Shown here: piece by piece, positions 19,217 to 55,124 of the stretch | Layout: every line of letters begins with the position of its first letter | Numbering within the stretch: position 1 is the first letter of the stretch | Source: Cyanobacteria bacterium REEB446 | GTDB taxonomy: Bacteria; Cyanobacteriota; Vampirovibrionia; LMEP-6097 | Direction: 5' to 3' | Assembly: GCA_018970325.1 (NCBI GenBank) | Contig: JAGWWP010000001.1 | Coordinates: 7,889-71,888, forward strand | Length of the DNA stretch: 64,000 nucleotides | Made by a program: the position numbers and the translations under genes | Notes under the pieces: generated by a model | Seen by the model: the letters and a program-made list of their open reading frames with translations, nothing else | Told to the model about the DNA's origin: nothing | Databases searched by the model: none

Positions 19217-19260
19217 AACGCTGCTTAAATTTATATTCTAATTCATATGAACCGCACTTC

Positions 19261-19320
19261 ATAAAATTTCATAAAAAATATTTTTATGAATTAGATTTCA
19301 TAGATTTTATGAAAGCCTTG
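19261..19320. promoter_or_regulatory. cluster of inverted repeats (TTCATAAAA / TTTTATGAA) upstream of DUF2442 gene
   Basis: cataaaatttcataaaaaatatttttatgaattagatttcatagattttatgaaag contains a near-perfect 23-bp palindrome plus flanking half-sites. Confidence 0.3.
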
Positions 19321-19341
19321 TAAATTAATTAGAGGGCTTAA

Positions 19342-32290: not shown

Positions 32291-32335
32291 ATAGTTTAGA
32301 TACTAAAGCCATATGAGAAAGCCGTCAAGAGAATT

Positions 32336-35747: not shown

Positions 35748-36826
35748 TTATTCATCTAAAGCCTCAATGCAAGAAAGCATTTGCCGAGGATTAGTGATAT
35801 AAGTATCTTGGCGTTTTTGCTCATCATTAGCAGCGTAAACTAATATCTTTCCATATTTTAAATCGGGGAAGGTTTTTTCAAAGTAATCTAAATTTTTTAA
35901 AAAATCCTTCGTAAAGGTTTCAGCAGATTTGATCTCTATAGGTAAATAACAGTTCCCGATATTATAAATGATATCAATCTCTTTCTGTGAGCCATCTCTA
36001 TAAAAACAAAGATTGTTTTTTTTGCCATTATTATAGCGGTGCTTAATCAATTCATTTATAACTAAATTTTCAAAAAGATTCCCTCTCAAAGGATGACTGT
36101 GAAGGTGTTTCTCTTTCTCTATATCTAATAAATAAGCTGCAAGGCCTGTATCGTAAAAATAGATCTTCGGTGATTTAATAAGCTGTTTTTTAATATTAGT
36201 AAAAAATGGTGGTAGCAGATAAATAATATAGCTAGCCTCTAATATACTGATCCACTCTCTAATAGTGTTGTGTGATACGCCTAGATCGTCTCCGAGGTTT
36301 TGATAGTTAAGAATCTGCCCGACTCGTCCAGCACAGAGTTTCAAAAATTTCTGGAATAAATGTAAATTTTTTAATTCGCTAATCTCTCTTACATCCCTCT
36401 CTACATAGGTTTTTATATAATCTCTCATGAAAGCCTCTACTGGAATGTCCTCCTCGTATAATTTAGGATAACTACCCTTAAAGATAAGCTCATCATAAGA
36501 AGGAGGTTCTTTATAATAACTACTAATTTCTTTTAGGCTGTATGGAAGTAAACTAATAATCGCGGTTCTGCCTGCTAAAGACTGGTTTATGGAGTCTAAA
36601 AGATTAAATTGCTGTGACCCTGTCAGGATAAACATTTCTTTGACTTTTTTTTCGTCGACTATTGCTTGAATATATGAAAGTAAAATTGGCACTCTTTGAA
36701 TTTCATCTAAGATTGCACCATCGGGGTATTGGTTTAAAAAGCTTTCTGGGTCATCCTGTGCGAAGCTTCTCGATTTAGGATGTTCTAAATTAACATAAGG
36801 CTTATTTTTAAAGATCTTTGTTAATC
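35748..36826 (-). pseudogene. N-terminally truncated DUF4143-type AAA+ ATPase (Walker A region missing)
   Basis: Open frame extends upstream of first Met to a TGA at ~36829 and encodes ...PESFLNQYPDGAILDEIQRVP... (Walker B region) but no P-loop. A short out-of-frame MLINKDL* sits at 36832. Confidence 0.45.
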
Positions 36827-39418: not shown

Positions 39419-39422
39419 AAAT

Positions 39423-41195: not shown

Positions 41196-41289
41196 GATTT
41201 TCTCCCACGAATATGTAAGAGCCTAGGATTATGTCCTAGACTATGGTTTAGTTAATGATTACTTTAGTGAAAATACTAAAGTTTAAGGA

Positions 41290-41530
41290 AAGCTATTTAA
41301 TTTTTTATATCATTAAATAGCCGGGAGTTGATAAATCGCTACAGGACGACTACTGCAATCTTTAAGCCCGAAGGCTTTGGACATGCATTACAGTCTCCCG
41401 GCTTTTTTAAAACCGAGAGATATCGTTTTGACAGTCGGATATCTCTATCGACTGCCTGTAGTGAGGCTATCAAACCCCAAGGCTCTTTCCTTAAAAAGAA
41501 CCTCGTTATGAATTATAAACTAAGTTGAGC
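41290..41530. repeat. conserved ~240-bp structured element, copy 1 (candidate ncRNA / regulatory module)
   Basis: ~90% identical to 53822-54060 in the same orientation. GC hairpin agccgggag(41329-41337)...ctcccggc(41395-41402) followed by TTTTTT. Compensatory pairs between copies: ctacagg/cctgtag vs ttacaag/cttgtaa. Confidence 0.7.
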
Positions 41531-41683
41531 TGTTAGCTAAAAAGTTTATTGAACTAGAATCAATGAACGCCTCTTATATATTCGATTTGATAGGCTATGA
41601 ATTAGTATCAGCTGATCTTGAGTAAATCTTCACAGAAAACCTGAGCCATACAAAAGCTGAAGAGCAGTATAATTACAAAAAGA

Positions 41684-44347
41684 GTGTTAAAGAATGATGA
41701 AAAGCAAATAAAAATATTTGAGACTGGCTCTAAATGGCTAAGAGCTGATTTTCATCTACATACTCGTGCAGATAAAGAATTTATTTATACTAAAAACGAG
41801 AACGATTTTATAAGTGATTATATTAAAGGACTAAAAAAAGCTGATATTCGACTCGGCGTGATTACTAATCATAATAAATTTGACTTAAGTGAGTTTAAGG
41901 CACTAAGGAAGGCTGCTCGCAGAGAAGAAATTTGCTTGCTTCCTGGAGTAGAACTCTCTGTAAATGAAGGTAGTAGCGGGGTTCATGTACTAGTAATTTT
42001 TAATCCAGATGAATGGATAAAATCTGAGAGCGATTTAATTAATCCTTTCATTAGCTCAATGTTTCCTGGAAAAACTAAAATAGAATATGAAAACGAAAAT
42101 GCTAATTCGGATAAAAATCTTATAGATACCATTGAAGAGCTTGGTAAAAGGAATCTTGATTACTTCATAATTTTTGCTCATGTAGAAAATAACAAGGGAC
42201 TATGGAAAGAAGTCAATGGTGCTAAACTCACTCAATTTTTCACAGAAGAACGTTACACCGTTCTAAAAGAAAGATGTTTAGGATTTCAAAAAGTTCGCAC
42301 CCATGATGTTGCAGAGCATCCTTGTAGGCTTAAAGTTCAAAACCGGCTTGGTAATTGGTATCCAGCAGAACTAGAAGGTAGTGATTGTAAAAAAATAGAA
42401 GACATCGGTAAAGGCAAAACAACATATCTTAAATTAGGCAGCTTTAATTTTGAAGCGATAAAACATGCTCTATTAGATTATAAAAGCCGTGTCAGAGAGA
42501 GCCTTCCAGAAATCAAACATTCATACATCCAAAAAATCAGCTTCACAGAAGGAGTAGGGAGCTTATCCTCTCAGACAATAAATTTCTCAGCAGCTTTAAA
42601 TACTCTCATCGGCATTAGAGGCAGTGGTAAATCATCTCTCATAGAAGTTTTGCGCTATGCTTTAGATCTCTCTGTAGGAGATAATGATAAAAAATATAAA
42701 AATGATTTGATTGACAAAGCATTAGGCAGCTCAGGTAAGCTAATACTAAATCTAGTAGACTGTCATAATCAGGAATATGAAATTCATAAAATAAAAGATC
42801 AAAGCTCAGACATATATTTAAATGGCAATAAAATAAGTGGAATTTCTATAAAAGATACTATAATCCGTAATCCTATTTACTTTGGGCAAAAAGATTTAAC
42901 GGGATTATCATCAGAAAACACTCTAATTGAGAAATTCCTAGAAAGAGAATTAAGGGATATTCGCCTAAAAATTAATCAAAAATCTGATGAAGTAAAAACC
43001 TATCTAGATAAGCTTTCCAAAAGATCTAAGGCTGAAGAAGCTTATAAGGAGCAGCTAGGCATTATTACGAACAACACGCATAGATTAGAAACATATAAAA
43101 AATATAATTTAGAAGAGAAACTTAATGAAAGTCTAGAACTAGAGAAAGATTTAGATTACATAGAAAAAAGTAAATCTATAACAGAAGATTTTATAAATAA
43201 ATTCAATGTGTTCCTGAATACTTATACAGATACCTTAAAGAATTTTCCAATGCGTGAATCCAAGCACAATAAGGACTTAGTTAGCGAATCTATAAACAAA
43301 AATCAAGAATTTCAACAAATACTAGAGTCCTTAAAAATCTATTTAGGAAAGGCAGAAAAAATAAAAGAAGATTTCATTAATCTCTCAAACACTCTAGGAG
43401 CAAGAAAAGAATCTGCAAAAGAATCTTTTGCTGAGCTAGAAAGGAACTTAGCTTTAGAAATAGAAAACAGTTCAATCAAAAACATTAGTATAGATGATTT
43501 CAAAAAACTCACCGATGAACTCAGGAAAGCCCAAGGGATTGCAGATGAATTACTAAAAGTAATTAATGATGAAAAAAAACTCTCAGAAGCTTTTGAAAAT
43601 TCATTAAACGAATTAGAAAACCTTTGGTTAGAGGAATATAATCTAGCTAAAACGAAATTAAAAGAACTCTGTAAAGATACTAAATCCATATCCATAGAAT
43701 GTGAATACCAAAACAACAAAGAAGCTTTCCTAAACTTTATAAAGCAAATTTTTACTGGTAGCGGTAAGCAGCCTGTTACTTACAAAAAAATCAGTGAAGA
43801 GTTTAAGAATTTTATTGAATTGTATAGAACTTTAGAGAATAACTTTGAAGATAAAAAAAGCTTCTTTGGATCAAATCCAGAAGATTTTCGCAAACTCTTT
43901 AACGAAAAAATAAAAGAATTAATTACATATCAAACACCTAATAAGTACCTTATTAATTATCATGGTAAAAACTTATTACATCACTCTCTAGGACAGCGTG
44001 CATCAGCTTTAATAATATTTATTTTAACTCGTGGTGGTCACGACCTTATCGTGATTGATCAGCCAGAAGATGATTTAGATAATCAAACTATTTATGAAGA
44101 TGTTATTAAACTAATCCGTGAAATAAAACCTCAGGTACAGTTTATACTTGCCACTCATAATCCTAATATTCCAGTGCTTGCTGATGCAGAATTAGTACAG
44201 GTCTGCTCTTTTACTAATGAAAAGATAGAAATTAGCTCTGGCAGCATTGATGAACCAAATACACAGAAACAAATTATTAATATCATGGAAGGTGGCAAAG
44301 AAGCTTTTGATCGCAGAAAGGAAATATATAAAAAATGGAATCCCTAG
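41684..44347 (+). CDS. PHP phosphoesterase domain fused to SMC/ABC-type coiled-coil ATPase (Ppl-like defence protein)
   Basis: N-terminal PHP motifs ADFHLHT, ITNHN, GVELSV, HVLVIF; Walker A GIRGSGKSS; long coiled-coil; C-terminal signature/Walker B/His-loop ...LGQRASALIIF...LIVIDQPEDDLD...ATHNP. Confidence 0.65.
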   Translation: MLKNDEKQIKIFETGSKWLRADFHLHTRADKEFIYTKNENDFISDYIKGLKKADIRLGVITNHNKFDLSEFKALRKAARREEICLLPGVELSVNEGSSGVHVLVIFNPDEWIKSESDLINPFISSMFPGKTKIEYENENANSDKNLIDTIEELGKRNLDYFIIFAHVENNKGLWKEVNGAKLTQFFTEERYTVLKERCLGFQKVRTHDVAEHPCRLKVQNRLGNWYPAELEGSDCKKIEDIGKGKTTYLKLGSFNFEAIKHALLDYKSRVRESLPEIKHSYIQKISFTEGVGSLSSQTINFSAALNTLIGIRGSGKSSLIEVLRYALDLSVGDNDKKYKNDLIDKALGSSGKLILNLVDCHNQEYEIHKIKDQSSDIYLNGNKISGISIKDTIIRNPIYFGQKDLTGLSSENTLIEKFLERELRDIRLKINQKSDEVKTYLDKLSKRSKAEEAYKEQLGIITNNTHRLETYKKYNLEEKLNESLELEKDLDYIEKSKSITEDFINKFNVFLNTYTDTLKNFPMRESKHNKDLVSESINKNQEFQQILESLKIYLGKAEKIKEDFINLSNTLGARKESAKESFAELERNLALEIENSSIKNISIDDFKKLTDELRKAQGIADELLKVINDEKKLSEAFENSLNELENLWLEEYNLAKTKLKELCKDTKSISIECEYQNNKEAFLNFIKQIFTGSGKQPVTYKKISEEFKNFIELYRTLENNFEDKKSFFGSNPEDFRKLFNEKIKELITYQTPNKYLINYHGKNLLHHSLGQRASALIIFILTRGGHDLIVIDQPEDDLDNQTIYEDVIKLIREIKPQVQFILATHNPNIPVLADAELVQVCSFTNEKIEISSGSIDEPNTQKQIINIMEGGKEAFDRRKEIYKKWNP

Positions 44348-45498
44348 ATATAATATTAGCTACAGCTCGGGGAGAGGATTCCACTCACCAATTAAAAAGT
44401 AATTATTCTAATCTAGAGCAGCTTAGTGCAGATATGGTAGCGTTCAGCAATAGCCATGGAGGTAACATTCTTATTGGTATTCAAGAATTTAAAGATGAAG
44501 CCAATACCATAATCGGTCTTAGTGATCAGGAAATTAAAAATTTGAATCAAATGATTTCCAATGCAGCAAGTCAAGGAGTAATTCCAGCTATAAATCCCAA
44601 AACTTCTATTGTCGAAGTAAATAGCAAAATGGTACTAGTAATAGAAATTCCAGAAGGAATAAATAAGCCTTACCAAGATAAAAATGGTATCTTCTGGGTT
44701 AGAAGCGGCTCTGATAAACGTAAAGCTACGGCGAGAGAAGAATTACAAAGACTATTTCAGAATGCTGGTCTAGTACACGCAGATGAAGTTCCTGTAAGTG
44801 GTTCTAATATTTCTGACTTAGATTTAGATTACTTTAGTAAATTCTATGAAAAGCGTTTTGGCAGAAGCTTAGAAAATGAATTTCTCTCGCTAGATAAAAT
44901 CTTAGAAAATATGAATCTAGCTCAGAATCAGCAATTAAATCTAGCAGCGACCTTATTATTCAGCAAAAATCCAGACTTCCGCCTACCAGCATTTATTGTA
45001 AAAGCTCGTTCTTACTTAAGTGATACTACTAATGAGAATTCATATCTAGATAGTTTAGATATAAGAGGTAGATTAGCAGATGTTTTCCACAGATCAGTAA
45101 ATTTTATTTTGATGAATATTCATCATATTCAAGCTGGACAAAATGTCAACAGTGTAGGTGAATCAGAAATTCCTCGTATAGTACTAGAAGAGCTTATCGC
45201 AAATGCCTTAATGCACAGAGACTACTTTATCTCAGCACCTATTAGAATTTTTGTTTTTCCTAGTCGTATCGAAATTATCAGTCCAGGACACCTACCTAAT
45301 AACCTAAGCATTGAGAATATTAAAGCTGGTAACTCAAATATGCGAAACCCGGTCTTAGCTTCTTTCGCTGTCAATTTATTACCATATCAAGGGATCGGAA
45401 CAGGTATCCTAAGGGCTTTGAGTAACTATCCAGATATTGACTTTGAGAATGATCGTAATAATAACCAATTCAAATGTACTATTCACAGGAGTCAGTAA
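44335..45498 (+). CDS. AlbA_2 (Schlafen-like) + HATPase_c_4 domain protein (putative nucleic-acid-binding/ATP-binding regulator)
   Basis: N-terminal AlbA_2-like region (FSNSHGGNILIGI), C-terminal divergent GHKL motif ELIANALMHRDY; overlaps upstream gene by 13 nt. Confidence 0.6.
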   Translation: MESLDIILATARGEDSTHQLKSNYSNLEQLSADMVAFSNSHGGNILIGIQEFKDEANTIIGLSDQEIKNLNQMISNAASQGVIPAINPKTSIVEVNSKMVLVIEIPEGINKPYQDKNGIFWVRSGSDKRKATAREELQRLFQNAGLVHADEVPVSGSNISDLDLDYFSKFYEKRFGRSLENEFLSLDKILENMNLAQNQQLNLAATLLFSKNPDFRLPAFIVKARSYLSDTTNENSYLDSLDIRGRLADVFHRSVNFILMNIHHIQAGQNVNSVGESEIPRIVLEELIANALMHRDYFISAPIRIFVFPSRIEIISPGHLPNNLSIENIKAGNSNMRNPVLASFAVNLLPYQGIGTGILRALSNYPDIDFENDRNNNQFKCTIHRSQ

Positions 45499-45539: not shown

Positions 45540-48500
45540 TCATTTTAAATCTTCTATTAATTTAGCCAATGCTATTCGATCAATCCACTCAATATTATGT
45601 TCTTGACTCATGCGACTTAATTCAGCCTGGTGACAATCTTTGTAGGTGCCATTCGTGATAAACATCGCTCTATCAATATTATAATAACTACTGTAGCTCT
45701 TTAAAACTTCGGGAAAACTCATTAATTTATTACGATCTCCGTAATCTTTACCCCCGTGTACATGTTTAACCTGTGCTGCGATTTGTTTGCCATTTTCATC
45801 ATCGAAAATAAAATCAACTCCAATATCTCTAGGTTTTTTGACCACATAACCTTTCTTTTCAAAAATACGCCTAATAATTTTCTCAAACTCTAGTCCCTGT
45901 TGGCTTTTATTTTGATATTTAATAGAATCTATCTCATCTAAAGAAGGAATTTTACTATCTGTATCTGTCTTGGGGTCTAGTTCTTTACTCATTTCTTTTA
46001 AGATGTCTCCTTCTGAAATATTTTGTGTATAACTCAAATCAAAGAGATTTTTTCTAGCTGTACGCTTTATTTCTAGCCTATCGTGAAGATTTTTCTCAAA
46101 AGTATGCTCTGCTACGAAATAGTACACATAAACATTTTTCTTCTGTCCCGTTCTATAAGCTCTACATGTAGCTTGATCTTCGACTGCGGGATTCCACCAA
46201 CGAGTTAGATGCAGCACATGATTAGCTTCTTGGAGGTTTAAACCCATACCAGCACAGCGTGGTGATAGAACTAAAGCTGAAAAACCATTTTCTGCCTGAA
46301 ATTTCTTTAAATTATCTTTTTTATCTTCCTCTGAAAGTTTACTGTTAATAGGAGCTAGACTTAAATTAAAATGATCGTTAATGAAGTCCTGGACTGCTTC
46401 TTGATAATGATTATATTCACAGAAAACTAAAGCTTTTTCATTTTTTTTCTTTATGTCTTTTAGTAAGTCTTTTAATTTACCTAAACGATCATTTTCAGTA
46501 AACCATTCTTGGAAATGAGGTTTAGTATAAATCTTGCCATTAGCAAGAAACCTATGTATGGAAGATTGTTTAATTAAACCTACTTTTTTCAGAGCAGGAT
46601 ATTTGCTTTTTAAAATACTATGTATGTGTTCCTCAGATTCTTCTTCAAGTTTAAAGGAAACGTTCGTTGAAACTAGTTCAGGGAGATCTTTCTTTAATTC
46701 AGGATCTTCTTTTAGCCGACCATTGGCATAGCCTTTAGTGAAATTGCCAAATTCTAGGCTTGTAATCAGATCTTTAAAACAACGTTCTCTTTCGCTATCT
46801 GGTAAATCTTGGTTAAAAAAAGCTTGATATTTTTTCCTAAAATCTTTTAATGATCCTAAAAGACCTGCATGAGAGCTATCCATAATATTCCAAAGCTCAG
46901 ACATATCATTTTCGATAGGTGTTCCACTCATGAGAATTTTAAAAGTAACATTAGTCGCTATCGCTTTTAATACAGTAGATACCTGCGTTTTAGCTGACTT
47001 AGCTTTTTGTACTTCGTCGCAGAGTAATAATGACCATGGAATTTGAGCGAAAGAATGCTGATAATTAACCATGGTGTCATAGGTGATAATGATGCATTTA
47101 TGTTTTAAAAGTAAATTTTTATCTAATAAAGGATAGCCTAGTTTCCCTTCAGGGACAGCTTTAGCACTGCTATCTCGGAAATATTTTTTAGGAGAAATCG
47201 ATTTAGCAGCTGTTTGAGAACCATGTAAAATAGTAAAATCAAATTCTTTACTATCTATAAAAAAATTTTTAGCTTGCTCCTCGAAGTTATCTAAAAGTAT
47301 AGGTGGAACTACTATTAAAATAGGCTTAAAATCTGTTTCGGGGAAACGCTTTTGCCAAATAGATCTCATTAGTAGTTTAATGAAACACATGGTCTGAAAA
47401 GTCTTACCTAAGCCCATATCATCAGCTAGAAGCACACCTGGATACGAAGCCATAAAGCAGTTTACCAACCATTCTATACATTGTTTTTGATAAGGGAAAA
47501 TATTAATCCCATCTTTCGTATCGATTAAACTCCAGTCTAAATGGGTGTTTAACTCATCAGTACTTTGTCTTTCATCATATTCTCGAATTTCGGCATTAGT
47601 CTGAATAATCAGTGCTTTATCATTCTCTGCTTTAGGAATGTTTTCAGAGTTAGTTTCTGCTTTTAGGCTTTTTTGAAATAATTTACTACCTTTATCTAAG
47701 CAGCTATTTATATAGTGAAAAGACTCTTGGCGCGTTATATCTAGTTCGACCTCATCACCTGTTTTGCTATCTTTTAGAAGATAGCTGCGTTGTGATTCTT
47801 TCGCTGCTAATTTAAGGTCTTCTTTAGCAATATTTAAATCTTCTTGATTGAGAAAAACGCTTTTATTTTCCTCTCCTTGATTTGAGTTGCCTAGATTAAT
47901 TTTTATAAAATTATCATCCTCTAAAATGACAGCATTTTGCTTATTATCTGCTTCTATAAGCTCATCCATGCCATCGAAAATTGTTTTCTGTTGAACTTTA
48001 CCAAACTGTCCTGGGATGACTATCGGTTTACCGATTCCTATTACTCTAGGACCGTATTGGCTAACATCTAGATTAAAAATATTATAGAACTCTGGAAGCT
48101 CTTTTAGAATTGAGCTATCAGAGTGATATTTTAATTTCTCAATTATTTCATCACTCGCCTTATGGTGATAATCGGTCTTTAATTTAAGGAGAGCCTTTTT
48201 AGTAGAGGGATTTAAGCCTAAATCTATATTCTCACCATTCGCTGTCCTAATTTTTATAGTATTGGACTGGGTATCCCAGATTCTTAAGCCTCTTTGTATC
48301 GCTTCTAAAGCTTTTTCTGTGCTTTCATATTTTAAAACCTCGCCTAACTCTTCATTAAAGGGTACTAAAGATGCTAAGTCTTCACTGCTACTAACTTCTA
48401 GAGATTTAGTGGCATATAAGTCGAACTTATTATAATGAAATATTTTTATGTCACTCAGTCTTAAATCATTTAGTAAAAGTGAATTATCACTATCATGCTT

Positions 48501-49193
48501 AGTAATCCATTCATGCACTTTCTGTAAAGCACTTATGATAACTGGATTATTCGCTGACCAGAGTTCCTTTTGATTTATATAACTATCAAAGAGTTGGTAA
48601 ATCCAGTATGGTAATACTGTAAGAGACTGCTTTTTAGCCTTAAGATTTAAATCTAAAATTAAGCCATTTTCTTTAACTTTATCTGTAATATTTTGAAAGC
48701 CATTTTCAGTTTTCATTGAAAGCCATAGCTCTACTTCACTACCGCTAAATTCAGCGGTTACTTTAAATTCTTTATTAGTGTTTAAGACAGGAAAATAATC
48801 TAAGATTTTTCTATCCTCATCTAAAGCTATTTTCAAGCTTAGAGTACCTTCACCTTCGCTATCTTCCTCCTCTTCCTCAGAGCTAAAATTAATTCCTAAA
48901 GTCTCAGCAGTTTCTTTATCTAAAGAGCTTTTCTGTAAATTAATTAGAAAATTATTTTTTAAATTCTCGTAATTTATAAAATAATCGCCATTATCATCAA
49001 TGTTGAAAAAATTTTTATTGTTTAAAACATTATAGATACTCAGATCGTCATGGAATGCCTTTTCTAGACTTAATCTTAGACCATGAAACACGGGCTTTAA
49101 TCTGAAGCGAGTCTTTAAAAAGCTTTTCCCTGTAGTTTTATTAGAACTCTTTTTTTTGAATAGATCTAAAAAGGCATTTAATGAACTAGGCAT
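45540..49193 (-). CDS. zorD: ZorD-like: SNF2-family helicase with C-terminal Mrr-type restriction endonuclease domain
   Basis: SNF2_N LLADDMGLGKTFQTM, DEVQ box LLCDEVQKAK, helicase C motifs, C-terminal Mrr_cat-like GLEFEKIIRRIF...IGVDFIFDD...QVKH; last gene of zorABCD-like operon. Confidence 0.6.
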   Translation of the reverse strand: MPSSLNAFLDLFKKKSSNKTTGKSFLKTRFRLKPVFHGLRLSLEKAFHDDLSIYNVLNNKNFFNIDDNGDYFINYENLKNNFLINLQKSSLDKETAETLGINFSSEEEEEDSEGEGTLSLKIALDEDRKILDYFPVLNTNKEFKVTAEFSGSEVELWLSMKTENGFQNITDKVKENGLILDLNLKAKKQSLTVLPYWIYQLFDSYINQKELWSANNPVIISALQKVHEWITKHDSDNSLLLNDLRLSDIKIFHYNKFDLYATKSLEVSSSEDLASLVPFNEELGEVLKYESTEKALEAIQRGLRIWDTQSNTIKIRTANGENIDLGLNPSTKKALLKLKTDYHHKASDEIIEKLKYHSDSSILKELPEFYNIFNLDVSQYGPRVIGIGKPIVIPGQFGKVQQKTIFDGMDELIEADNKQNAVILEDDNFIKINLGNSNQGEENKSVFLNQEDLNIAKEDLKLAAKESQRSYLLKDSKTGDEVELDITRQESFHYINSCLDKGSKLFQKSLKAETNSENIPKAENDKALIIQTNAEIREYDERQSTDELNTHLDWSLIDTKDGINIFPYQKQCIEWLVNCFMASYPGVLLADDMGLGKTFQTMCFIKLLMRSIWQKRFPETDFKPILIVVPPILLDNFEEQAKNFFIDSKEFDFTILHGSQTAAKSISPKKYFRDSSAKAVPEGKLGYPLLDKNLLLKHKCIIITYDTMVNYQHSFAQIPWSLLLCDEVQKAKSAKTQVSTVLKAIATNVTFKILMSGTPIENDMSELWNIMDSSHAGLLGSLKDFRKKYQAFFNQDLPDSERERCFKDLITSLEFGNFTKGYANGRLKEDPELKKDLPELVSTNVSFKLEEESEEHIHSILKSKYPALKKVGLIKQSSIHRFLANGKIYTKPHFQEWFTENDRLGKLKDLLKDIKKKNEKALVFCEYNHYQEAVQDFINDHFNLSLAPINSKLSEEDKKDNLKKFQAENGFSALVLSPRCAGMGLNLQEANHVLHLTRWWNPAVEDQATCRAYRTGQKKNVYVYYFVAEHTFEKNLHDRLEIKRTARKNLFDLSYTQNISEGDILKEMSKELDPKTDTDSKIPSLDEIDSIKYQNKSQQGLEFEKIIRRIFEKKGYVVKKPRDIGVDFIFDDENGKQIAAQVKHVHGGKDYGDRNKLMSFPEVLKSYSSYYNIDRAMFITNGTYKDCHQAELSRMSQEHNIEWIDRIALAKLIEDLK

Positions 49194-50754
49194 AATTAAT
49201 TTCTTCTCCAGTCTTAGGGTTTCTAGGGGTTAGCTCATATAGCTCTTTCATCATGCACGTAACGGACTCATTCCAAAAGCGATTACTACGACTAAAACGC
49301 CAGTGAGGAGATCTCCTGAATGATGCTTGATCTTTTTTTGCATCGTAAACTATATCTGTAAAAATGAAATAATCTCTAAGGCGAATTGGTACACTGATAT
49401 TTTTACCGAAATAAGTGTCATAAAACCTTAGAAGGATCTTCTCATTCTCAGAAAGAGAAGGTTTGTTTTTTATAGAGTTAATATTATAGACATATGCAGC
49501 AGTACCAGTGTCAACTGTTTCGAAAATCAATATTTGATCTATTTTGAGAACGAAAGATGTTAAAGAAGAGTGATTTAAAATTGGCTCTATAAATAAATCA
49601 ATATCTTTTTTTTCAGTTAATTTTTTAAATTGATTTATTTTATATCGATCAGGTAAAAAAATTCTAAAATCATCAGCATAGTATAAATATCTTTGCCAGC
49701 ACTCTTTACGCCCATGTTTATCTGGAGAGTCTTTAAAGGCAAACTCAAAGAATAAATTAAAGTCTTGTTCATTAAACCAATAGCGAATTTTTTTATATAC
49801 CCCTTCGTCACTTTCCTGTAGGATCTGCCACTCAGATTTATTAATACGAGGATCACCTAGTTTATTTTTTGTAAAAGACTTTATTTCGCTCTTTTCTCGT
49901 TCATTAATATTCCACTCTATTGTTTTAAATAGCTTAATAAAGCGCTCACAGCCTTTTCTGGAACGTAGATGAGTAAAAGCATGTAAAATATTTTTAAATA
50001 GATCGAAATTAGAGCGATTAGCCAAGTATTTTTCTAAAAGATAATGGAAGTATTTAGATAGAAGATGATCTATAAAAGAATCATTAGGAAAGAATTTCAC
50101 ATAAAATTTATTAGAGGCTATTTCTAAAATGCTTTCTGATAAATTTTCATCATTAATACTCTGATTTTCTAATAAAATAAATATTTTTTCTGCCTCTGCC
50201 TGAAAGTAGACTTGTTCACTTTTTTCTTTTCTATAAGTTTCAAAATCAAGTAGCAGTGAGTGTTTTTCAAACAGATTATTAATCTGTATTTTAGAATTAC
50301 TAAGTTGGAAAAACCAATCCTCTAAAAGCTCTAACCAAAAATCATCTTTAAATTCATAGTCCTCATTTAGAATTTGAAAACGCCAAATATAGTCATTAAG
50401 CCATCTTAATAAGATACGCTGCGGTTCCTGTCTTTTAATTAAATTTCTGAATTCTAATTCATCTTCAAGACCAGACATAGAGAGACCTAGACGAACTATG
50501 GTTTTTTTAATCTTTATATCATCAGGGTTTTTAAGATATTTTCCCCATTCAGTTTTTAGATCTCCAATCTTAGTTAAGCTAATAGTGTTAAGAGACTTAG
50601 TCTTTAGTTTTCTCAAGCGAGTAATTAATGGATTGAAATGTTTAATTACGTAAGTATTATGGTGATTGAAAAATTCAGAGCTAAAGTGGGAATACTCATT
50701 TGAAGCATCTAAGAGCTTGCTTAGAGATTCTTTGATTTTTAAAACTACACTCAT
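49186..50754 (-). CDS. zorC: ZorC-like protein (unknown function)
   Basis: Size (522 aa) and position between MotB-like and SNF2 genes with overlapping start/stop codons; no motif verified. Confidence 0.4.
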   Translation of the reverse strand: MSVVLKIKESLSKLLDASNEYSHFSSEFFNHHNTYVIKHFNPLITRLRKLKTKSLNTISLTKIGDLKTEWGKYLKNPDDIKIKKTIVRLGLSMSGLEDELEFRNLIKRQEPQRILLRWLNDYIWRFQILNEDYEFKDDFWLELLEDWFFQLSNSKIQINNLFEKHSLLLDFETYRKEKSEQVYFQAEAEKIFILLENQSINDENLSESILEIASNKFYVKFFPNDSFIDHLLSKYFHYLLEKYLANRSNFDLFKNILHAFTHLRSRKGCERFIKLFKTIEWNINEREKSEIKSFTKNKLGDPRINKSEWQILQESDEGVYKKIRYWFNEQDFNLFFEFAFKDSPDKHGRKECWQRYLYYADDFRIFLPDRYKINQFKKLTEKKDIDLFIEPILNHSSLTSFVLKIDQILIFETVDTGTAAYVYNINSIKNKPSLSENEKILLRFYDTYFGKNISVPIRLRDYFIFTDIVYDAKKDQASFRRSPHWRFSRSNRFWNESVTCMMKELYELTPRNPKTGEEINYA

Positions 50755-51479
50755 TTGTTTAAATCCTTGAGATTAGACTGTAGAGCAGCACGCTGTTCAT
50801 TAGATTTTACTCTTATCGTGATTTCTACTCTGCGACTAGCATCACGATTGATATTTAAGAAATTAGGATCATTTTTTATAGAGTTAATATTTAATAACAC
50901 TGAATTCCAGTCCGCACTATTCATGAGTTTAGTACCATATTTTAAATCCTGTTCTCCACGCCCAATTAAATATAGCCACGCCAAGAGAGTTTCATATCTT
51001 GCTTGAGTGCTTGGATTTTTTTGATAATGACTTAAAATATAAGTGCCGATACTTAAAGAACGATTTTGGCTTAAATCTAAATTATTATTATCGTCTCCTA
51101 TATCATCAGTAAATCCTTCTATGTAAACACCTTGAATATAATCTCTATATTTCTCATTTCCCATCAGTATTTCAATAACACGATTAATAAAAATCTGATT
51201 TAAAAACTTTTCACAGTCTTGATTACAGGAATCGCTAGCTGTAAGAAATTTTAACTTATCTTCTTTAACTTCTATAGTACAGGCTAAAGGATCATCTTTC
51301 TTAATGACACAAGATAGATCATCGTTTTTTAGTTCTTTATTAATCTTTTTACTAATCTCTTCAATTTTCGTTATACTGCCTCTAGCGTTATTCTGAGTGA
51401 GAGCTAGCATCAGCATAATAAACACAACCGCTAAGGAGGTCATTAAATCAGTCATTGAGGATTCTAATTTAAGTGCCAT
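50751..51479 (-). CDS. zorB: ZorB-like: MotB/OmpA-family protein (N-terminal TM anchor + OmpA-like peptidoglycan-binding domain)
   Basis: TM helix LMTSLAVVFIMLMLAL; OmpA-like motif VYIEGFTDDIGDDNNNLDLSQNRSLSIGTYIL. Confidence 0.6.
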   Translation of the reverse strand: MALKLESSMTDLMTSLAVVFIMLMLALTQNNARGSITKIEEISKKINKELKNDDLSCVIKKDDPLACTIEVKEDKLKFLTASDSCNQDCEKFLNQIFINRVIEILMGNEKYRDYIQGVYIEGFTDDIGDDNNNLDLSQNRSLSIGTYILSHYQKNPSTQARYETLLAWLYLIGRGEQDLKYGTKLMNSADWNSVLLNINSIKNDPNFLNINRDASRRVEITIRVKSNEQRAALQSNLKDLNK

Positions 51480-51494
51480 AAATTAAAACTTTTA

Positions 51495-53765
51495 TTATTT
51501 GGCACTCCACTGGCTACTTGTAATAGAATCTTCAAGATTTGAAATCAAAGACTGTAAATGACTAATTGCTTCTGTGTGCTGTTTGCTAAAGTCATTGAAA
51601 TACCCTTGCCCAGCATCTTTGATTTTATTAATAGATGAGGCCATTGATTCACCAGCTTTACCAAACTCATTAGTTATATCTAGTGTTAATTTATTAATTG
51701 CTTGGTAATCCTTATGTAATTGATCACTAGTACTTTGATGAGTTTTTAATAATTCCTTCTGCTCTTGCATGGCTGTTCTTAATAGATTTAGCTGCTCTTT
51801 GAAGTCCACATCCTTTTGCTCACTAGCTATGGTGATTTTATTTTGGAGTTCTATGAGCTTATCCATGGAATTCTGGATTTTTATAGATTCCTCTCTTAGT
51901 GCACTTACTCGCTGTAAATATTCACTTAATTCGGTAAGTGAGCTTCTTTGCGTTGCTGTCAGTTCATTTTGTTTATTAATGAAATGTGAGAACTCATTAT
52001 TTAATAAATTAGTTAACTTATCGAAAGCATAGTTTAATTGAGCTTGAGCGTTATTTAACTGCTCAGGCATAGATAGTGCTTGTCTACTTAAAATATCAAT
52101 ATTATTTTTTAACTCATGTAAAACGCTCTCTAGATTATCTTTTAAGCTGCTCATGCTACTAGTGAAGCTATGCTCCAAGTTTTTAATCTGAGATTCGTGT
52201 ACACTAGTGTTCTCTTGCTGCATTCTGTTATGATCTTCCTGAAAGCTTCTTGAAGAATTTTCAAAGATATTCTTCATCTCGAATAATAATTCACTACTCA
52301 ACTTAGAATTAGCTTCGCTAAGCTCAAAAATTTTATTAGTAATAAATTGCATACCTTCAGTGTGTTTACGTTGCATTTCATCTTGTTGAGTTACCAGATT
52401 AGCTGTTAATTCCTGATTTCTCAGCATAATATTCTCTAAAAGCTGATTTAGATTAGAACCTTGCTGATTATGTATCTCTTCAAAAAGATTTTTTACTAGA
52501 TCTGACATCTCACGCTGTGAATCAGAGAGACTTAATTTCATTTCAGCTGTAGATTTAGACATATCACCCAGTAAAGATTCCATAATCTCAGGAAGCTTTT
52601 CCATAGTGGTTTTCAAAGCCTCTATATCACTATTTAAACCTTTGGTAAGACTCTCTCTAAGTTCCTGTCCTATAGTACCTAAATGCTCAGACATACCATT
52701 CAAACCTGCCGCACTAAAATCTTTCATTGAATCGGAGACTTTAAACATCTCATCTTTTATATCTGTCACTAAATTTTTAACTCCAGATGTCTCATTTTTA
52801 ATATCTGAAACTGCATTTTTTACACTTTCTTCAATTGATTTCTCTATATTCTCCAAAATACTGCCAGTACCTTTAGTTTTATGAAAATAGCTTTCTATCT
52901 GACCAGGTATTTGTTTAATATCTTTCTGCATCACTATGAGTAAATCCTGAGTGGTTAATCGCCTGAAATTTCTATTCAACTCATAGATAATGCTAGACAG
53001 AGTTTCATGCATTTCATGCTCTTTATTTTTAATAGTGATCTCTGCATTAATGGCTAAAATCAAACCTACTATACTGGTAATAAATTTTGCAGATAGTGCA
53101 TTAATAAAATCATCTAAGCCTGTTATATCCCCCCCTCCTGCTTCCTGTCTGACTACACTCAAACCAGCAGTAAGAGCGATAAAAGTAAAAAGCAGTCCAG
53201 TACTGGTAAAGAAGCTAGGATAATGCTTCAGTCTAAATACATAAGGACTTACTATAGTATTAACTTTAAAAAAATCTTCAGCTTGATAGACATTCATTAG
53301 CTGTTCTTTATACTCATGCACGCCCTCAGAAAACTCTTTCCATGCATGTTCTAGACTAATATACATAGAACTTTGAAGATTTGTCTCAGAATATGGTTCG
53401 TCAAAGTATTTATTGATTTTCGCTTTAAGTTCATAAGAACTATGCGATTCTTTTATGAGCTGATAAAAAGCTTTTAAATCCTTTATCCCAGATTCTGTTT
53501 CAGCTAAATTTGCTTGATAGGGATTACTATTTAAATTTAAAACTTTTATTTTATTTTTACATGCAAACCAGATGGAAGCCAAAAAGCCATAAATGAGTAT
53601 AAGCACTGTAATCTTAATACCAAAAATACCAGAGCTGGAATCTTGATTACCATTCCACCAATTTATAAACTGACTTGACCACGTCCGAGGATCACACAGG
53701 AACAGCGTTAAATCAAGATTTAAAATTTTAAAAATATTAAACTGTGGTAACAATGTAGAACTCAT
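51495..53765 (-). CDS. zorA: ZorA-like: MotA/ExbB-type membrane protein with ~500-aa C-terminal helical/coiled-coil tail
   Basis: TM helices (ILIYGFLASIWFAC; GLLFTFIALTAGLSVV; ITSIVGLILAINAEITI) resembling MotA/ExbB core, then long heptad-rich tail; 15 bp upstream of MotB-like gene. Confidence 0.55.
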   Translation of the reverse strand: MSSTLLPQFNIFKILNLDLTLFLCDPRTWSSQFINWWNGNQDSSSGIFGIKITVLILIYGFLASIWFACKNKIKVLNLNSNPYQANLAETESGIKDLKAFYQLIKESHSSYELKAKINKYFDEPYSETNLQSSMYISLEHAWKEFSEGVHEYKEQLMNVYQAEDFFKVNTIVSPYVFRLKHYPSFFTSTGLLFTFIALTAGLSVVRQEAGGGDITGLDDFINALSAKFITSIVGLILAINAEITIKNKEHEMHETLSSIIYELNRNFRRLTTQDLLIVMQKDIKQIPGQIESYFHKTKGTGSILENIEKSIEESVKNAVSDIKNETSGVKNLVTDIKDEMFKVSDSMKDFSAAGLNGMSEHLGTIGQELRESLTKGLNSDIEALKTTMEKLPEIMESLLGDMSKSTAEMKLSLSDSQREMSDLVKNLFEEIHNQQGSNLNQLLENIMLRNQELTANLVTQQDEMQRKHTEGMQFITNKIFELSEANSKLSSELLFEMKNIFENSSRSFQEDHNRMQQENTSVHESQIKNLEHSFTSSMSSLKDNLESVLHELKNNIDILSRQALSMPEQLNNAQAQLNYAFDKLTNLLNNEFSHFINKQNELTATQRSSLTELSEYLQRVSALREESIKIQNSMDKLIELQNKITIASEQKDVDFKEQLNLLRTAMQEQKELLKTHQSTSDQLHKDYQAINKLTLDITNEFGKAGESMASSINKIKDAGQGYFNDFSKQHTEAISHLQSLISNLEDSITSSQWSAK

Positions 53766-53777
53766 CCACTCTCTCCG

Positions 53778-53805
53778 TTATTAACTATCTAATGTTTTAG
53801 TGCAA
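53778..53805 (-). promoter_or_regulatory. putative sigma70-type promoter for zorA operon
   Basis: Minus strand reads TTGCAC-16 nt-TAATAA, then GGAGAGAG RBS before the ATG; weak. Confidence 0.2.
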
Positions 53806-53821
53806 GCACTAAGATTGAAAA

Positions 53822-54060
53822 AAAGCTATTTAGAAATTTATATATTATTAAATAGCCGGGAGTTCATAGACCGTTACAAGACGACTACTGCAATCTTTAA
53901 GCCCTAAGGCTTTGGACATGCATTACAGTCTCCCGGCTTTTTTAAAGCCAGGAGATATCGTTTTTACAGTCGGATATCTCTATCGACTGCTTGTAAAGAG
54001 GCTATGAAACCCCAAGGTTCTTTTAAGGAAAGAACCTCGTTATGAATTATAAACTAAGTG
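53822..54060. repeat. conserved ~240-bp structured element, copy 2
   Basis: See copy 1; lies between zorA start and the stop codon of the degenerate Fic gene. Confidence 0.7.
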
Positions 54061-54071: not shown

Positions 54072-55124
54072 TCACTGAAAATAATTTCTTACAGCAAATT
54101 CAAACTGTTCAATGAAAAGCTCTTTGAGATACAGAAGGTTATTTCTTTCATAAAAAAGTATCATCGCTTTTTTATATTCAGTCTCATCAATGCTTCTGTA
54201 GGAGAGAGGGCAGTAATTATAAGCCAGTAGTAAGGCATTGCTAGTAATGCGACTAGTTCTTTTATTACCGTCCTCAAAAGCTTGGATATAGGAAATAAGT
54301 GCAGAGCAGGTTAAAGCTTTAGTGAATGGCTCTTTAATTTTATTTACAGTCTCAGATAGGCTTTTAATCGAATCACTAATCTGGAAAACATTATCTAAAG
54401 GCTTATAATTCGTTCCTGTAATTCCGACCAAACTATTTCTGAAATTAGGATTAATGTATAAGCCCTTAGTTAGCATGCTGTGCAATTCAATAATTTTATT
54501 CGGCGTAATTTTTTTAAAGTAAGCAGGTTTTTCTAAGATGTACTCTAGAGCGTGTTTATGATTCAGTAACATTTTTGCTTCTTCTTTGCTATGACCTTTA
54601 GCTTCGATGCCGACTTTAAAAAGAGTTTCTGTGTCTAATAATGAATAAGTATTCCCCTCTATCTGTGAGGATTTCCATGAAAGATCTATAGTTAATCTTT
54701 CGAATTCTTTTCTTATAATAGTTTTACTGTGTTGTTTTAAATTACTTCTATAAGTATTATTTAATTGCTCAATGTGTTCTAACTCACTGCTAGAGAAGAT
54801 TTTCTCAGATACTTTATCTATGAGTTTGAAAATATTAAAATTAAAACTCTCTTCTATAAATCGTTTATCAGGAATAACTGAGAAGTATTGTTTGATATTG
54901 ATTGGCTGAATCAGTTTATATAGTGGTGAAAGTTTGTAAACAGTATTCTTACCTTCTCCATATCTGATTATTAAATCAAGTTTTAATAAATAGGTTAAAT
55001 CTCTGTTTAAGGTAACTCTAGATATAGATTCATTTAATAATCTCTCTATGCTTGCTATATCAAGTTCAGAATATTTTAAAAATAATTCTAAGATTGTTTC
55101 CTGCCGAGGATTTAACTTAAACAT
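54072..55124 (-). CDS. Fic-family protein with N-terminal wHTH and degenerate active-site motif
   Basis: Fic core with motif position reading YIQAFEDGNKRTSR instead of HPFx(D/E)GNGRxxR (His, Pro and second Gly replaced). Confidence 0.55.
   Translation of the reverse strand: MFKLNPRQETILELFLKYSELDIASIERLLNESISRVTLNRDLTYLLKLDLIIRYGEGKNTVYKLSPLYKLIQPINIKQYFSVIPDKRFIEESFNFNIFKLIDKVSEKIFSSSELEHIEQLNNTYRSNLKQHSKTIIRKEFERLTIDLSWKSSQIEGNTYSLLDTETLFKVGIEAKGHSKEEAKMLLNHKHALEYILEKPAYFKKITPNKIIELHSMLTKGLYINPNFRNSLVGITGTNYKPLDNVFQISDSIKSLSETVNKIKEPFTKALTCSALISYIQAFEDGNKRTSRITSNALLLAYNYCPLSYRSIDETEYKKAMILFYERNNLLYLKELFIEQFEFAVRNYFQ

What the first reader, a model, noticed from the sequence alone, without database searches (positions are those of the whole stretch)
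45540..53765. Complete type I Zorya-like operon (zorA-zorB-zorC-zorD)
Four co-directional, overlapping or near-abutting minus-strand genes: a 756-aa MotA/ExbB-like membrane protein with a ~500-aa helical tail (ZorA-like); a 242-aa TM + OmpA-like protein with VYIEGFTDDIGDD...LSQNRS (ZorB-like); a 522-aa unknown (ZorC position); and a 1217-aa SNF2 helicase (DMGLGKT, DEVQ) with a C-terminal Mrr-type nuclease domain (ZorD-like). Gene order and sizes match the published type I Zorya architecture. This is a proton-channel-driven anti-phage system, unusual in what otherwise looks like a streamlined AT-rich genome.
Basis: partly seen in the sequence, partly recalled or inferred. Interest (0 to 1): 0.6.

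Follow-up and report, generated by a model that had tools for sequence, protein, structure and literature searches.

The report
Divergent type I Zorya defence operon
The four genes are a complete but divergent type I Zorya anti-phage system in a non-photosynthetic cyanobacterial relative; the system is ordinary, but it is a recombination mosaic and shares a previously undescribed structured RNA leader with a neighbouring restriction-modification operon.

Summary
Four tightly packed minus-strand ORFs of 756, 242, 522 and 1217 aa lie at exactly the stated coordinates. Each one hits type I Zorya profiles best.

- **ZorA:** the predicted motor domain matches solved ZorA structures first, then ExbB, TolQ and MotA.
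- **Functional residues:** the ZorB Asp, ZorA Ca-site Glu pair, ion-path Thr, PG-binding N/L/R, ZorC EH glutamate and ZorD DExQ are conserved.
- **Context:** no flagellar, Tol or Exb genes occur in the window.

The lineage is divergent: every NCBIfam score falls far below its cut-off, and the source MAG, Cyanobacteria bacterium REEB446, names these proteins generically.

The remark that the system is "unusual in a streamlined genome" is not supported. The operon sits in a ~21-kb defence island.

Two further findings:
1. The operon is a recombination mosaic. Against a relative, the block of ZorA tail tip + ZorB + ZorC has been swapped, while the rest is 97-100% identical.
2. A ~190-nt structured leader RNA with strong covariation precedes both zorA and a type III mod-res operon. 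It matches no Rfam family and may be an attenuator or riboswitch.

The parts
54046..54051 (-). TATAAT box at the 5' edge of the conserved leader; the likely promoter -10
   Evidence: The promoter-like site GTGATA-18-TATAAT was found. Sequence identity among loci with different flanks begins about 8 nt upstream of this box. In L001 and at the mod-res copy the upstream gene is divergent, so the operon needs its own promoter there.
53850..54041 (-). Structured leader RNA core, 192 nt, in the 5' UTR of zorA
   Evidence: MFE is -89.6 kcal/mol with z = -6.0. Of 68 pairs, 15 show changes on both sides and 98% of cells are paired; slid controls give 0-3 pairs and ~41%. The CM hit scores 232 bits. No Rfam family reaches its gathering score.
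53818..53857 (-). AU-rich hairpin (GGCUAUUUA...UAAAUAGC) followed by U7; a terminator-like element overlapping segment S3 of the leader
   Evidence: Read from the sequence. The stem is kept while the loop varies with indels across loci. L009 has a canonical terminator at the equivalent place.
51495..53765 (-). zorA: 3-TM MotA/ExbB-like motor domain (about res 50-270) plus a ~490-aa all-helical tail
   Evidence: PADLOC ZorA1 1e-17. The family profile hits PDB ZorA 8vvn at 4.6e-13 and 8qyd at 3.8e-9. The AF2 motor domain has pLDDT 80-90. Foldseek's top six hits are ZorA chains. E144/E147, T194 and P183 are invariant.
50751..51479 (-). zorB: N-terminal TM helix with Asp11, plus an OmpA-like peptidoglycan-binding domain
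   Evidence: PADLOC ZorB1 1e-27. Pfam OmpA. The best PDB hit is EcZorB 8qyd_F, with D26 aligned to D11. D11, N133, L136 and R140 are invariant.
49186..50754 (-). zorC: EH-signature protein
   Evidence: Pfam EH_Signature 1.3e-12, above the gathering score. PADLOC ZorC1. The only PDB hit of the family profile is EcZorC 8r68 at 3.2e-6, with E400 aligned to E412, R335 to R349 and W339 to W353.
45540..49193 (-). zorD: SNF2 helicase (Walker A DDMGLGKT, DEVQ at 726) plus a C-terminal Mrr_cat nuclease domain (1099-1213)
   Evidence: PADLOC ZorD1 3.8e-124. Pfam SNF2-rel_dom, Helicase_C and Mrr_cat. The best PDB hit is EcZorD 8qy7 at 2e-66. The motifs are invariant in the family.
41315..41507 (-). Second copy of the same leader RNA, upstream of the type III mod-res operon (36926-41195). 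It is not part of Zorya but is the same regulatory element.
   Evidence: Exact 24- and 26-nt core matches. CM score 218 bits. mod is PADLOC MTase_III at 4e-111 and res is REase_III at 3e-150.

Best explanation
This is an intact, probably functional type I Zorya anti-phage operon (zorA-zorB-zorC-zorD) of a divergent lineage found mainly in Vampirovibrionia/Caenarcaniphilales-type MAGs. The mechanism is inferred by homology to the E. coli system (PMC11946911). ZorA and ZorB would form an inner-membrane ion-driven motor, 5:2 in E. coli. ZorB would anchor it to peptidoglycan through its OmpA-like domain and carry the ion-binding Asp (D11 here). ZorA carries a ~490-residue helical tail that projects into the cytoplasm. 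On envelope perturbation by an infecting phage, the motor would turn and the tail would recruit or activate ZorC (DNA binding through the EH-signature domain) and ZorD (an SNF2 ATPase/nuclease, here with an extra Mrr-type nuclease domain). These would degrade the incoming DNA locally. Shown here: gene order, domain content, the ZorA fold, and conservation of the residues that are essential in E. coli. Inferred: stoichiometry, ion type, the trigger, and anti-phage activity. The operon is probably transcribed from a TATAAT box through a ~190-nt structured leader. That leader may gate read-through into zorA.
For: The ORFs and their junctions are as reported. All four proteins hit type I Zorya models best in PADLOC. 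The Pfam domains fit. For ZorA, the family profile hits PDB ZorA chains at 4.6e-13 and 3.8e-9, with EcZorA E86/E89 aligned to invariant E144/E147, T147 to T194 and P136 to P183. The ZorA AF2 topology is TM1, three helices, a beta-hairpin, TM2, then TM3 running into the tail. Its Foldseek top six hits are ZorA chains from E. coli and Shewanella, followed by ExbB, TolQ and MotA. For ZorB, D26 corresponds to D11, and PG-binding N152/L155/R159 correspond to N133/L136/R140, all invariant. For ZorC, E400 corresponds to E412, R335 to R349 and W339 to W353. ZorD hits EcZorD at 2e-66, with Walker A and DEVQ invariant. The same four-gene order occurs in more than 15 loci. dN/dS is 0.08-0.2. The operon is embedded in a defence island.
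Against: Every NCBIfam Zorya score is far below the curated cut-off: ZorA 59 against 190, ZorB 30 against 400, ZorC 24 against 490, ZorD 253 against 1500. A single-sequence search of ZorA against PDB finds no ZorA. The ZorC model is poor, and its match to EcZorC is not significant at E = 0.7. The His of the EH signature could not be mapped with certainty; H484 is only a candidate. EcZorB Y151 is N132 here, and EcZorD E651 aligns to Q640. No experiment exists on this lineage.
Confidence: 0.9

Rival explanations
1. A decayed or inactive Zorya relic that no longer defends.
For: Scores lie far below the NCBIfam equivalog cut-offs. A few residues that matter in E. coli differ: Y151 is N132 and E651 is Q640.
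Against: All four ORFs are full length with coupled junctions. dN/dS is 0.08-0.2 even in the divergent block. The catalytic and ion-path residues are invariant across a family whose members are as little as ~27-30% identical to the window proteins. The substitutions N132 and Q640 are themselves conserved clade-wide, so they are lineage features rather than decay.
Confidence: 0.05
2. The MotA/MotB-like pair is a housekeeping stator or a Tol/Exb-type energiser, and the helicase genes are unrelated neighbours.
For: ZorA and ZorB share the fold of ExbB, TolQ and MotA, and ZorB has an OmpA domain.
Against: ZorA chains outrank ExbB, TolQ and MotA in the fold search. ZorA has a ~490-aa tail that those proteins lack. 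No flagellar, TolA/B/Pal, ExbD or TonB genes are in the window. The four genes overlap and stay together in every related locus, whatever the flanks.
Confidence: 0.01
3. A Zorya-like system that has diverged in function, for example one that restricts plasmids or transforming DNA, or that senses a different envelope signal. Under this reading the Mrr domain is the real effector.
For: ZorD carries an Mrr_cat domain that is absent from EcZorD and from the Vampirovibrio ZorD proteins. ZorB has a hypervariable insert at 181-210 next to the C-terminal loop. The lineage is rare: 11 representative clusters at E<=1e-30.
Against: Mrr-type domains were already described for ZorD in the original Zorya report, as cited in PMC11890865. 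Every other defining feature matches type I. EcZorI does not block conjugation or transformation (PMC11946911, extended data legend).
Confidence: 0.04

Closest known systems
[quoted passage not shown]
   Same: The gene order is zorABCD. The protein sizes are close: 756/242/522/1217 aa here against 729/246/560/1080. ZorA has the same motor topology and a tail of about the same length (~490 against 507 aa). The Ca-site Glu pair, ion-path Thr, ZorB Asp, PG-binding N/L/R, ZorC EH glutamate with its R/W network, and the ZorD Walker A and DExQ box are all shared.
   Different: Sequence identity is only ~15-20% for ZorA and is very low for ZorB and ZorC, so single-sequence searches barely find them. 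ZorD has an added C-terminal Mrr_cat nuclease domain. ZorA has a ~45-residue N-terminal extension. ZorB Y151 is N132, and its cysteine pattern differs (C57/C67 invariant, C85/C89 clade-specific). The host is a Cyanobacteriota/Melainabacteria-group MAG.
Shewanella sp. ANA-3 type I ZorAB (PDB 8vvn; PMC11890865)
   Same: This is the best profile hit for ZorA (4.6e-13). Its alignment runs through TM2, the periplasmic loop and TM3 (GLLFTF..., FINALSAKFITS against NGAKIAFLTS). Foldseek TM-score is 0.65-0.67 over the motor domain.
   Different: About 17-19% identity. No information on ZorC or ZorD comes from that structure.
5:2 ion-driven motors MotAB, ExbBD and TolQR
   Same: They share the membrane fold, the conserved Asp in the single TM helix of the B subunit, and (for MotB) the OmpA-like PG-binding domain.
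   Different: ZorA has a long cytoplasmic coiled-coil tail. ZorB has no plug or linker. The partners are DNA-acting effectors rather than a rotor, TonB or TolA. No such partners are in the window.
Terminator-type riboswitches and attenuator leaders (for the leader RNA); Rfam sRNA-Xcc1 RF02221 is the nearest model
   Same: The leader is a multi-helix, covariation-supported domain lying between a -10 box and a hairpin with a U-tract, ahead of the first gene. It has three mutually complementary 9-mers that allow alternative pairings.
   Different: No Rfam family reaches its threshold; sRNA-Xcc1 scores 28 bits against a gathering score of 53. The ligand or factor is unknown. The downstream genes are defence operons (Zorya, type III R-M) and, in L009, a Zn-ribbon/TM2 membrane protein.

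Membership tests
Type I Zorya | Four co-directional genes in the order zorA-zorB-zorC-zorD | tested here: met
   (coordinates, overlaps). The same order occurs in related loci.
Type I Zorya | ZorA has a MotA/ExbB-like three-TM motor domain with a cytoplasmic helical/beta-hairpin domain | tested here: met
   AF2 model with pLDDT 80-90 over residues 80-270. Foldseek's top six hits are ZorA chains at E 4e-8 to 6e-5, followed by ExbB, TolQ and MotA. The profile hits PDB ZorA chains.
Type I Zorya | ZorA has a long C-terminal helical tail (about 500 aa) | tested here: met
   DSSP shows near-continuous helices from 217 to 750. The tail is ~490 aa against 507 in EcZorA (PMC11946911). Pentameric packing was not tested.
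Type I Zorya | ZorA Ca-site glutamates (E86/E89) and ion-path Thr147/Ser184 | tested here: met
   E144/E147 and T194 align to them and are invariant. S231 is inferred to be the S184 equivalent from the constant +47 offset only.
Type I Zorya | ZorB has a single TM helix with the essential Asp, plus an OmpA-like PG-binding domain | tested here: met
   D11 aligns to EcZorB D26 and is invariant. Pfam OmpA scores 32.7 against a gathering score of 27.2. N133, L136 and R140 are kept; Y151 is N132.
Type I Zorya | ZorC has the EH-signature domain with its Glu and His | tested here: inconclusive
   The domain is met (Pfam 48.2 against 27.5). The Glu is met, as E412. The His is not mapped: H484 in a conserved HWR motif is only a candidate. 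The structure model is too poor to decide.
Type I Zorya | ZorD has an SNF2-type ATPase with a DExQ box, and a nuclease | tested here: met
   EcZorD hit at 2e-66 with DEAQ aligned to DEVQ. Walker A and DEVQ are invariant. Mrr_cat scores 1.7e-11 with the G-V-D...Q-V-K motif.
Type I Zorya | Scores above the NCBIfam equivalog cut-offs (NF033914, NF041788, NF041789, NF041790) | tested here: not met
   59/190, 30/400, 24/490 and 253/1500. These cut-offs define naming by PGAP, not the system. They explain why the MAG's proteins are labelled generically.
Type I Zorya | ZorA5B2 assembly; PMF dependence; anti-phage activity | not testable with these tools
   No multimer prediction was available and there is no experiment.
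Flagellar stator / Tol-Pal / ExbBD-TonB | Partner genes nearby (fli/flg, tolA/B/pal, exbD/tonB) | tested here: not met
   Pfam scans of all ORFs of 120 aa or more in the window found none.
DISARM (DrmD) / Dpd (DpdE) / BREX (BrxH) helicases, considered for ZorD | The best profile match is to that family, and the partner genes are present | tested here: not met
   ZorD1 scores 414 bits, against DpdE 215, BrxH 52 and DrmD 46. No partner genes are adjacent.
Riboswitch / transcription attenuator (leader RNA) | A conserved secondary structure supported by covariation, upstream of the regulated genes on the sense strand | tested here: met
   15 of 68 pairs are compensatory, 0 of 500 shuffles reach this, and slid controls give 0-3. 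G-U pairs occur on the sense strand. There are only 7 distinct sequences, and most of the signal comes from two of them.
Riboswitch / transcription attenuator (leader RNA) | An expression platform (terminator with a competing helix) and a ligand or factor | tested here: inconclusive
   A hairpin with U7 is present, and L009 has a strong terminator. S1/S2/S3 co-vary. The alternative fold, however, costs 9-18 kcal/mol in the four main-clade copies tested. The ligand is unknown.

The most novel reading that the evidence does not exclude
The ~190-nt structured leader is a previously undescribed cis-regulatory RNA, either an attenuator or a riboswitch. It gates transcription into at least two unrelated defence operons in the same island (type I Zorya and type III mod-res). 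Because it is shared, it also serves as the upstream homology arm for swapping whole defence cassettes between genomes. In relative L001 the Zorya cassette sits, behind the same leader, in exactly the slot that mod-res occupies in the window.
Probability: 0.35. Interest if true: 0.7.

Novelty: new member of a known kind. Interest (0 to 1): 0.4.

Why it matters
The Zorya call adds a divergent lineage of a known system. It comes from the Melainabacteria side of the Cyanobacteriota and is missed by standard annotation. It is useful mainly as a natural test of which residues are truly essential: the Asp, the Ca-site Glu pair, the ion-path Thr, the EH Glu and the DExQ box all survive at ~15-20% identity.

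Two by-products are more interesting.

1. **Recombination mosaic.** The swapped block treats the distal ZorA tail, ZorB and ZorC as one exchangeable module. This fits the proposal that the tail communicates with the effectors, and it suggests which parts are co-adapted.
2. **Shared leader RNA.** The same structured leader precedes Zorya and a type III restriction-modification operon. If it proves regulatory, it would be a rare case of RNA-based common control of distinct defence systems. Such control would be directly testable.

Tried and rejected
- **ZorA against PDB, single sequence:** no ZorA hit. A family profile was needed.
- **ZorC structure:** A second homologue search with that alignment returned the same seven proteins. 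The resulting model had pLDDT 58, and its Foldseek hit to EcZorC was not significant. The EH histidine therefore stays unmapped.
- **Rfam:** no family is matched at its gathering score anywhere in the window. The permissive search gave only sRNA-Xcc1, at 28 bits against 53, which I treat as a resemblance in architecture and not as membership.
- **Integron attC reading of the leader:** I considered this and rejected it by eye. There are no R''/R' core sites at the homology boundary, no integrase in the window, and the element lies 5' of the genes next to a -10 box.
- **Further leader copies:** none in the rest of the window or in the more distant Zorya loci (nhmmer, CM). None in plasmids, phages or IMG/VR. 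The metagenome scan found five more, all upstream of zorA.
- **Leader upstream of mod elsewhere:** only one short contig carries that protein.
- **Positive selection as the cause of the divergent central block:** rejected, because dS is saturated there (1.0-2.2) and about 0 in the flanks.
- **First whole-locus MAFFT run:** timed out. It was replaced by chunked blastn and a faster MAFFT mode.


Full report
**Observation**

The four minus-strand ORFs are at exactly the reported coordinates:
- zorA, 51495-53765, 756 aa
- zorB, 50751-51479, 242 aa
- zorC, 49186-50754, 522 aa
- zorD, 45540-49193, 1217 aa

They are separated by a 15-nt gap, a 4-nt overlap and an 8-nt overlap, so they form an operon. 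GC content across them is 31-33%, no different from the surrounding sequence.

**Family assignment**

Each protein hits a type I Zorya model best in PADLOC: ZorA1 1.1e-17, ZorB1 1e-27, ZorC1 8.6e-8 and ZorD1 3.8e-124. DpdE, BrxH and DrmD score far lower for ZorD.

Pfam gives these domains:
- OmpA for ZorB.
- EH_Signature for ZorC, at 48.2 bits against a gathering score of 27.5.
- SNF2-rel_dom, Helicase_C and a full-length Mrr_cat domain (1099-1213) for ZorD.
- Nothing for ZorA.

NCBIfam recognises all four as Zorya, but far below its equivalog cut-offs: 59/190, 30/400, 24/490 and 253/1500. The lineage is therefore divergent.

ZorB, ZorC and ZorD are identical to proteins MBU6195976, MBU6195975 and MBU6195974 of the NCBI MAG "Cyanobacteria bacterium REEB446". 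There they are named OmpA family protein, hypothetical protein and DEAD/DEAH box helicase.

The closest relatives of ZorA come from Caenarcaniphilales and Vampirovibrionia MAGs.

An exhaustive search finds few relatives among 1.84 billion cluster representatives. Only 11 score at E<=1e-30, 52 at 1e-10 and 546 at 1e-3.

**ZorA**

A single-sequence search of PDB finds no ZorA. A profile of 17 homologues does: it hits Shewanella type I ZorA (8vvn) at 4.6e-13 and E. coli ZorA (8qyd) at 3.8e-9.

In that alignment, residues that matter in EcZorA fall on invariant residues of this clade:

| EcZorA | Role | Window residue |
|---|---|---|
| E86/E89 | Ca2+ site | E144/E147 |
| T147 | Ion path | T194 |
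| P136 | Kink | P183 |

All of these are functionally important in E. coli (PMC11946911).

The AlphaFold2 model is confident over the motor domain (pLDDT 80-90). Its topology is TM1, three helices, a beta-hairpin, TM2, then TM3 continuing into a helical tail that runs to residue 750. This is the published description of EcZorA.

Foldseek against PDB returns ZorA chains as its top six hits, at E 4e-8 to 6e-5 and target TM-score 0.59-0.67. ExbB, TolQ and MotA follow.

The constant +47 offset places the tail start near residue 270. That gives a tail of ~490 aa, against 507 in EcZorA. This step is inference.

**ZorB**

The best PDB hit is EcZorB. The alignment places the essential D26 on D11, and PG-binding N152/L155/R159 on N133/L136/R140. 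Y151 is N132 here.

D11, the whole TM segment and the N-L-x-L-S-Q-x-R motif are invariant in 14 homologues.

Residues 181-210 are a hypervariable, indel-rich insert just before the conserved C-terminal strand.

**ZorC**

A 12-member profile has a single PDB hit, EcZorC 8r68, at 3.2e-6. The alignment places E400 on E412, R335 on R349 and W339 on W353. All three are conserved.

The His of the EH signature lies beyond the aligned stretch. H484, in a conserved HWR motif, is a candidate only. The structure model was too weak to decide, with pLDDT 58 and a Foldseek hit to 8r68 at E = 0.7.

**ZorD**

EcZorD (8qy7) is the best PDB hit at 2.1e-66, with DDMGLGKT identical and DEAQ aligned to DEVQ. Both motifs are invariant in the family. 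EcZorD E651 aligns to Q640, which is also invariant here.

The Mrr_cat domain is present in the close clade and in L009 and L011. It is absent from the Vampirovibrio ZorD proteins and from EcZorD. An Mrr-like domain in ZorD was already noted in the original description, as cited in PMC11890865.

**Refutation tests**

Neither did.
- The ZorA fold is of the MotA/ExbB type, and more specifically ZorA-like.
- Pfam scans of every ORF of 120 aa or more in the window found no flagellar, Tol-Pal or Exb/TonB component.

The operon in fact lies in a defence island of about 21 kb, between ffh/ftsZ (31037-33886) and nuoL (55264). The island holds:
- PDC-S01-like AAA_14/DUF4143 genes at 34203-35429, with a truncated copy at 35748-36692.
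- A type III restriction-modification pair: res at 36926-39418 and mod at 39423-41195.
- Ppl at 41684-44347.
- An overlapping AlbA_2/HATPase_c_4 gene at 44335-45498.
- Zorya.
- A Fic protein at 54072-55124.

A second small cluster of AAA_14/DUF4143, SIR2_2 and KAP NTPase genes lies at 16565-21933.

Type I Zorya is described as widespread in Gram-negative phyla (PMC11946911).

**Mechanism**

By homology with EcZorI (PMC11946911), I take ZorAB to be a peptidoglycan-anchored, ion-driven inner-membrane motor. Its ZorA tail relays activation to ZorC (DNA binding) and ZorD (ATP-dependent nuclease), which destroy the incoming phage DNA. Here ZorD has a second, Mrr-type nuclease module.

What is shown here is the anatomy and the conservation of the residues that are essential in E. 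coli. Stoichiometry, H+ against Na+, the trigger and the activity are all inferred.

**Mosaic structure**

Against locus L001 (an ENA scaffold carrying the same four genes in different flanks), the operon divides into sharply bounded blocks:

| Window region | Content | Divergence from L001 |
|---|---|---|
| 52230-54059 | Leader + ZorA codons 1-512 | Identical except one T-run indel |
| 49233-52229 | ZorA 513-756 + ZorB + ZorC | ~25-30% |
| 45546-49232 | ZorD | ~3% |

Synonymous divergence is 0 in the first block, 1.0-2.2 in the second and 0.08 in ZorD. dN/dS is 0.08-0.2 in the divergent block. This pattern is recombination, not local positive selection.

Other loci are near-identical to the window only over the leader and the ZorA motor domain (L006, L007). 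L008 and L028 share the nuoL flank at 99% amino-acid identity, and L008 also shares the Fic flank at 96%. Yet their Zorya alleles are only 76-86% identical to the window's.

The distal tail, ZorB and ZorC travel together. This is consistent with co-adaptation of the tail tip with its effector partner, but that is inference only.

**A shared structured leader**

Similarity among all these loci stops at window 54059, which is 13 nt from the Fic stop codon. The conserved ~275 nt upstream of zorA has a second, direct copy at 41263-41535, upstream of the type III mod-res operon.

The element is built as follows:
1. It begins at a TATAAT box (54046-54051).
2. A 192-nt core follows (53850-54041). It folds far better than shuffled sequence, with MFE -89.6 and z = -6.0.
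3. It ends in an AU-rich hairpin with a U7 tract (53818-53857), about 55 nt before the zorA start codon.

A divergent copy in L009 precedes a Zn-ribbon/TM2 membrane protein and is followed by a canonical terminator.

On an alignment of seven distinct copies, 98% of cells pair and 15 of 68 pairs carry changes on both sides. Slid controls give 0-3 such pairs and ~41% pairing, and none of 500 shuffles reaches the observed values. An alternative pseudoknot helix, GAGAUAUC:GAUAUCUC, is also fully kept, with one compensatory change.

Three 9-mers are mutually complementary: S1 CUCCUGGCU, S2 AGCCGGGAG and S3 CUCCCGGCU. S3 overlaps the 5' arm of the terminator-like hairpin. In L009 all three co-vary (C/G/C becomes U/A/U), so both S1:S2 and S2:S3 stay possible. 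The S2:S3 fold, however, costs 9-18 kcal/mol in the four main-clade copies tested.

No Rfam family reaches its threshold. The best is sRNA-Xcc1, at 28 bits against 53.

The covariance model finds no more copies in the window or in the distant Zorya loci. Scans of plasmids, phages and IMG/VR are negative. Five further metagenomic copies all precede zorA.

In L001, the sequence downstream of zorD continues into window 36912->34163. The Zorya cassette there therefore occupies, behind the same leader, the slot that mod-res holds in the window.

My reading is that this is a cis-acting regulatory leader, an attenuator or a candidate riboswitch. I also think it acts as a homology arm for cassette exchange. 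I put the probability at about 0.35. The sample is small and narrow, and no ligand or factor is known.

**Verdict**

This is a new, divergent member of a known kind of system, and on its own it is ordinary. The mosaic module exchange and the shared leader RNA are the parts worth a follow-up.

Noticed in passing
window 53818-54051 (-) and 41263-41535 (-): A ~230-nt conserved element made of a TATAAT box, a 192-nt covariation-supported structured RNA, and a hairpin with a U-tract. It precedes both zorA and the type III mod-res operon. It matches no Rfam family and is a candidate attenuator or riboswitch.
   Followed up: yes
window 49233-52229 against L001 4100-6400: A recombination mosaic. ZorA residues 513-756, ZorB and ZorC are 25-30% divergent from L001 (dS 1-2.2), while ZorA 1-512 is identical and ZorD is 97% identical.
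   Followed up: yes
window 34203-55124: A defence island between ffh/ftsZ and nuoL. It holds PDC-S01-like AAA_14/DUF4143 (plus a truncated paralogue at 35748-36692), type III R-M (36926-41195), Ppl (41684-44347) with an overlapping AlbA_2/HATPase_c_4 gene (44335-45498), Zorya, and a Fic/SoFic-like gene (54072-55124).
   Followed up: partly
window 41563-41621; L001 1176-1508: A 59-nt remnant of the small NTP_transf_2 (MNT-like) gene that lies upstream of the leader in L001 and other loci. In L001 the Zorya cassette occupies the slot that holds mod-res in the window; L001 10118-13040 matches window 36912-34163.
   Followed up: partly
window 53897-53923 (-): An 8-codon micro-ORF (MHVQSLRA) inside the leader, with GGGAGA 5 nt upstream. 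The frame is kept in the divergent L009 copy (VSVQSFRA). This may be only a by-product of RNA pairing.
   Followed up: no
window 16565-21933: A second small putative defence cluster: an AAA_14/DUF4143 protein, a SIR2_2-domain protein and an 863-aa KAP-family NTPase.
   Followed up: no
L009 458-1353 (-): A divergent leader copy followed by a strong intrinsic terminator and a Zn-ribbon/TM2-domain membrane protein. It lies on the strand opposite to that locus's own Zorya operon, so the leader is not exclusive to defence genes.
   Followed up: partly
L017-L023 (Nitrospira/Nitrospirota MAGs): ZorA-motor-like and ZorB-like gene pairs with about 40% identity over TM2-TM3 only, and no ZorC or ZorD homologue detectable. 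They may be another Zorya type or a different ZorAB-like motor system.
   Followed up: no
window 50850-50940 (ZorB residues 181-210): A hypervariable, indel-rich insert in the ZorB periplasmic domain, just before the conserved C-terminal strand. It is present in only some alleles.
   Followed up: partly
window 27808-31044 (+), 9964-11448 (-), 4931-6232 (-): Large ORFs (1078, 494 and 433 aa) with no Pfam match at E<=1e-5.
   Followed up: no
window 3666-4934 (+) and 54072-55124 (-): Two Fic-domain proteins in one 64-kb window. L001 carries an AlbA_2/HATPase_c_4/Fic-like_C gene downstream of zorD.
   Followed up: no
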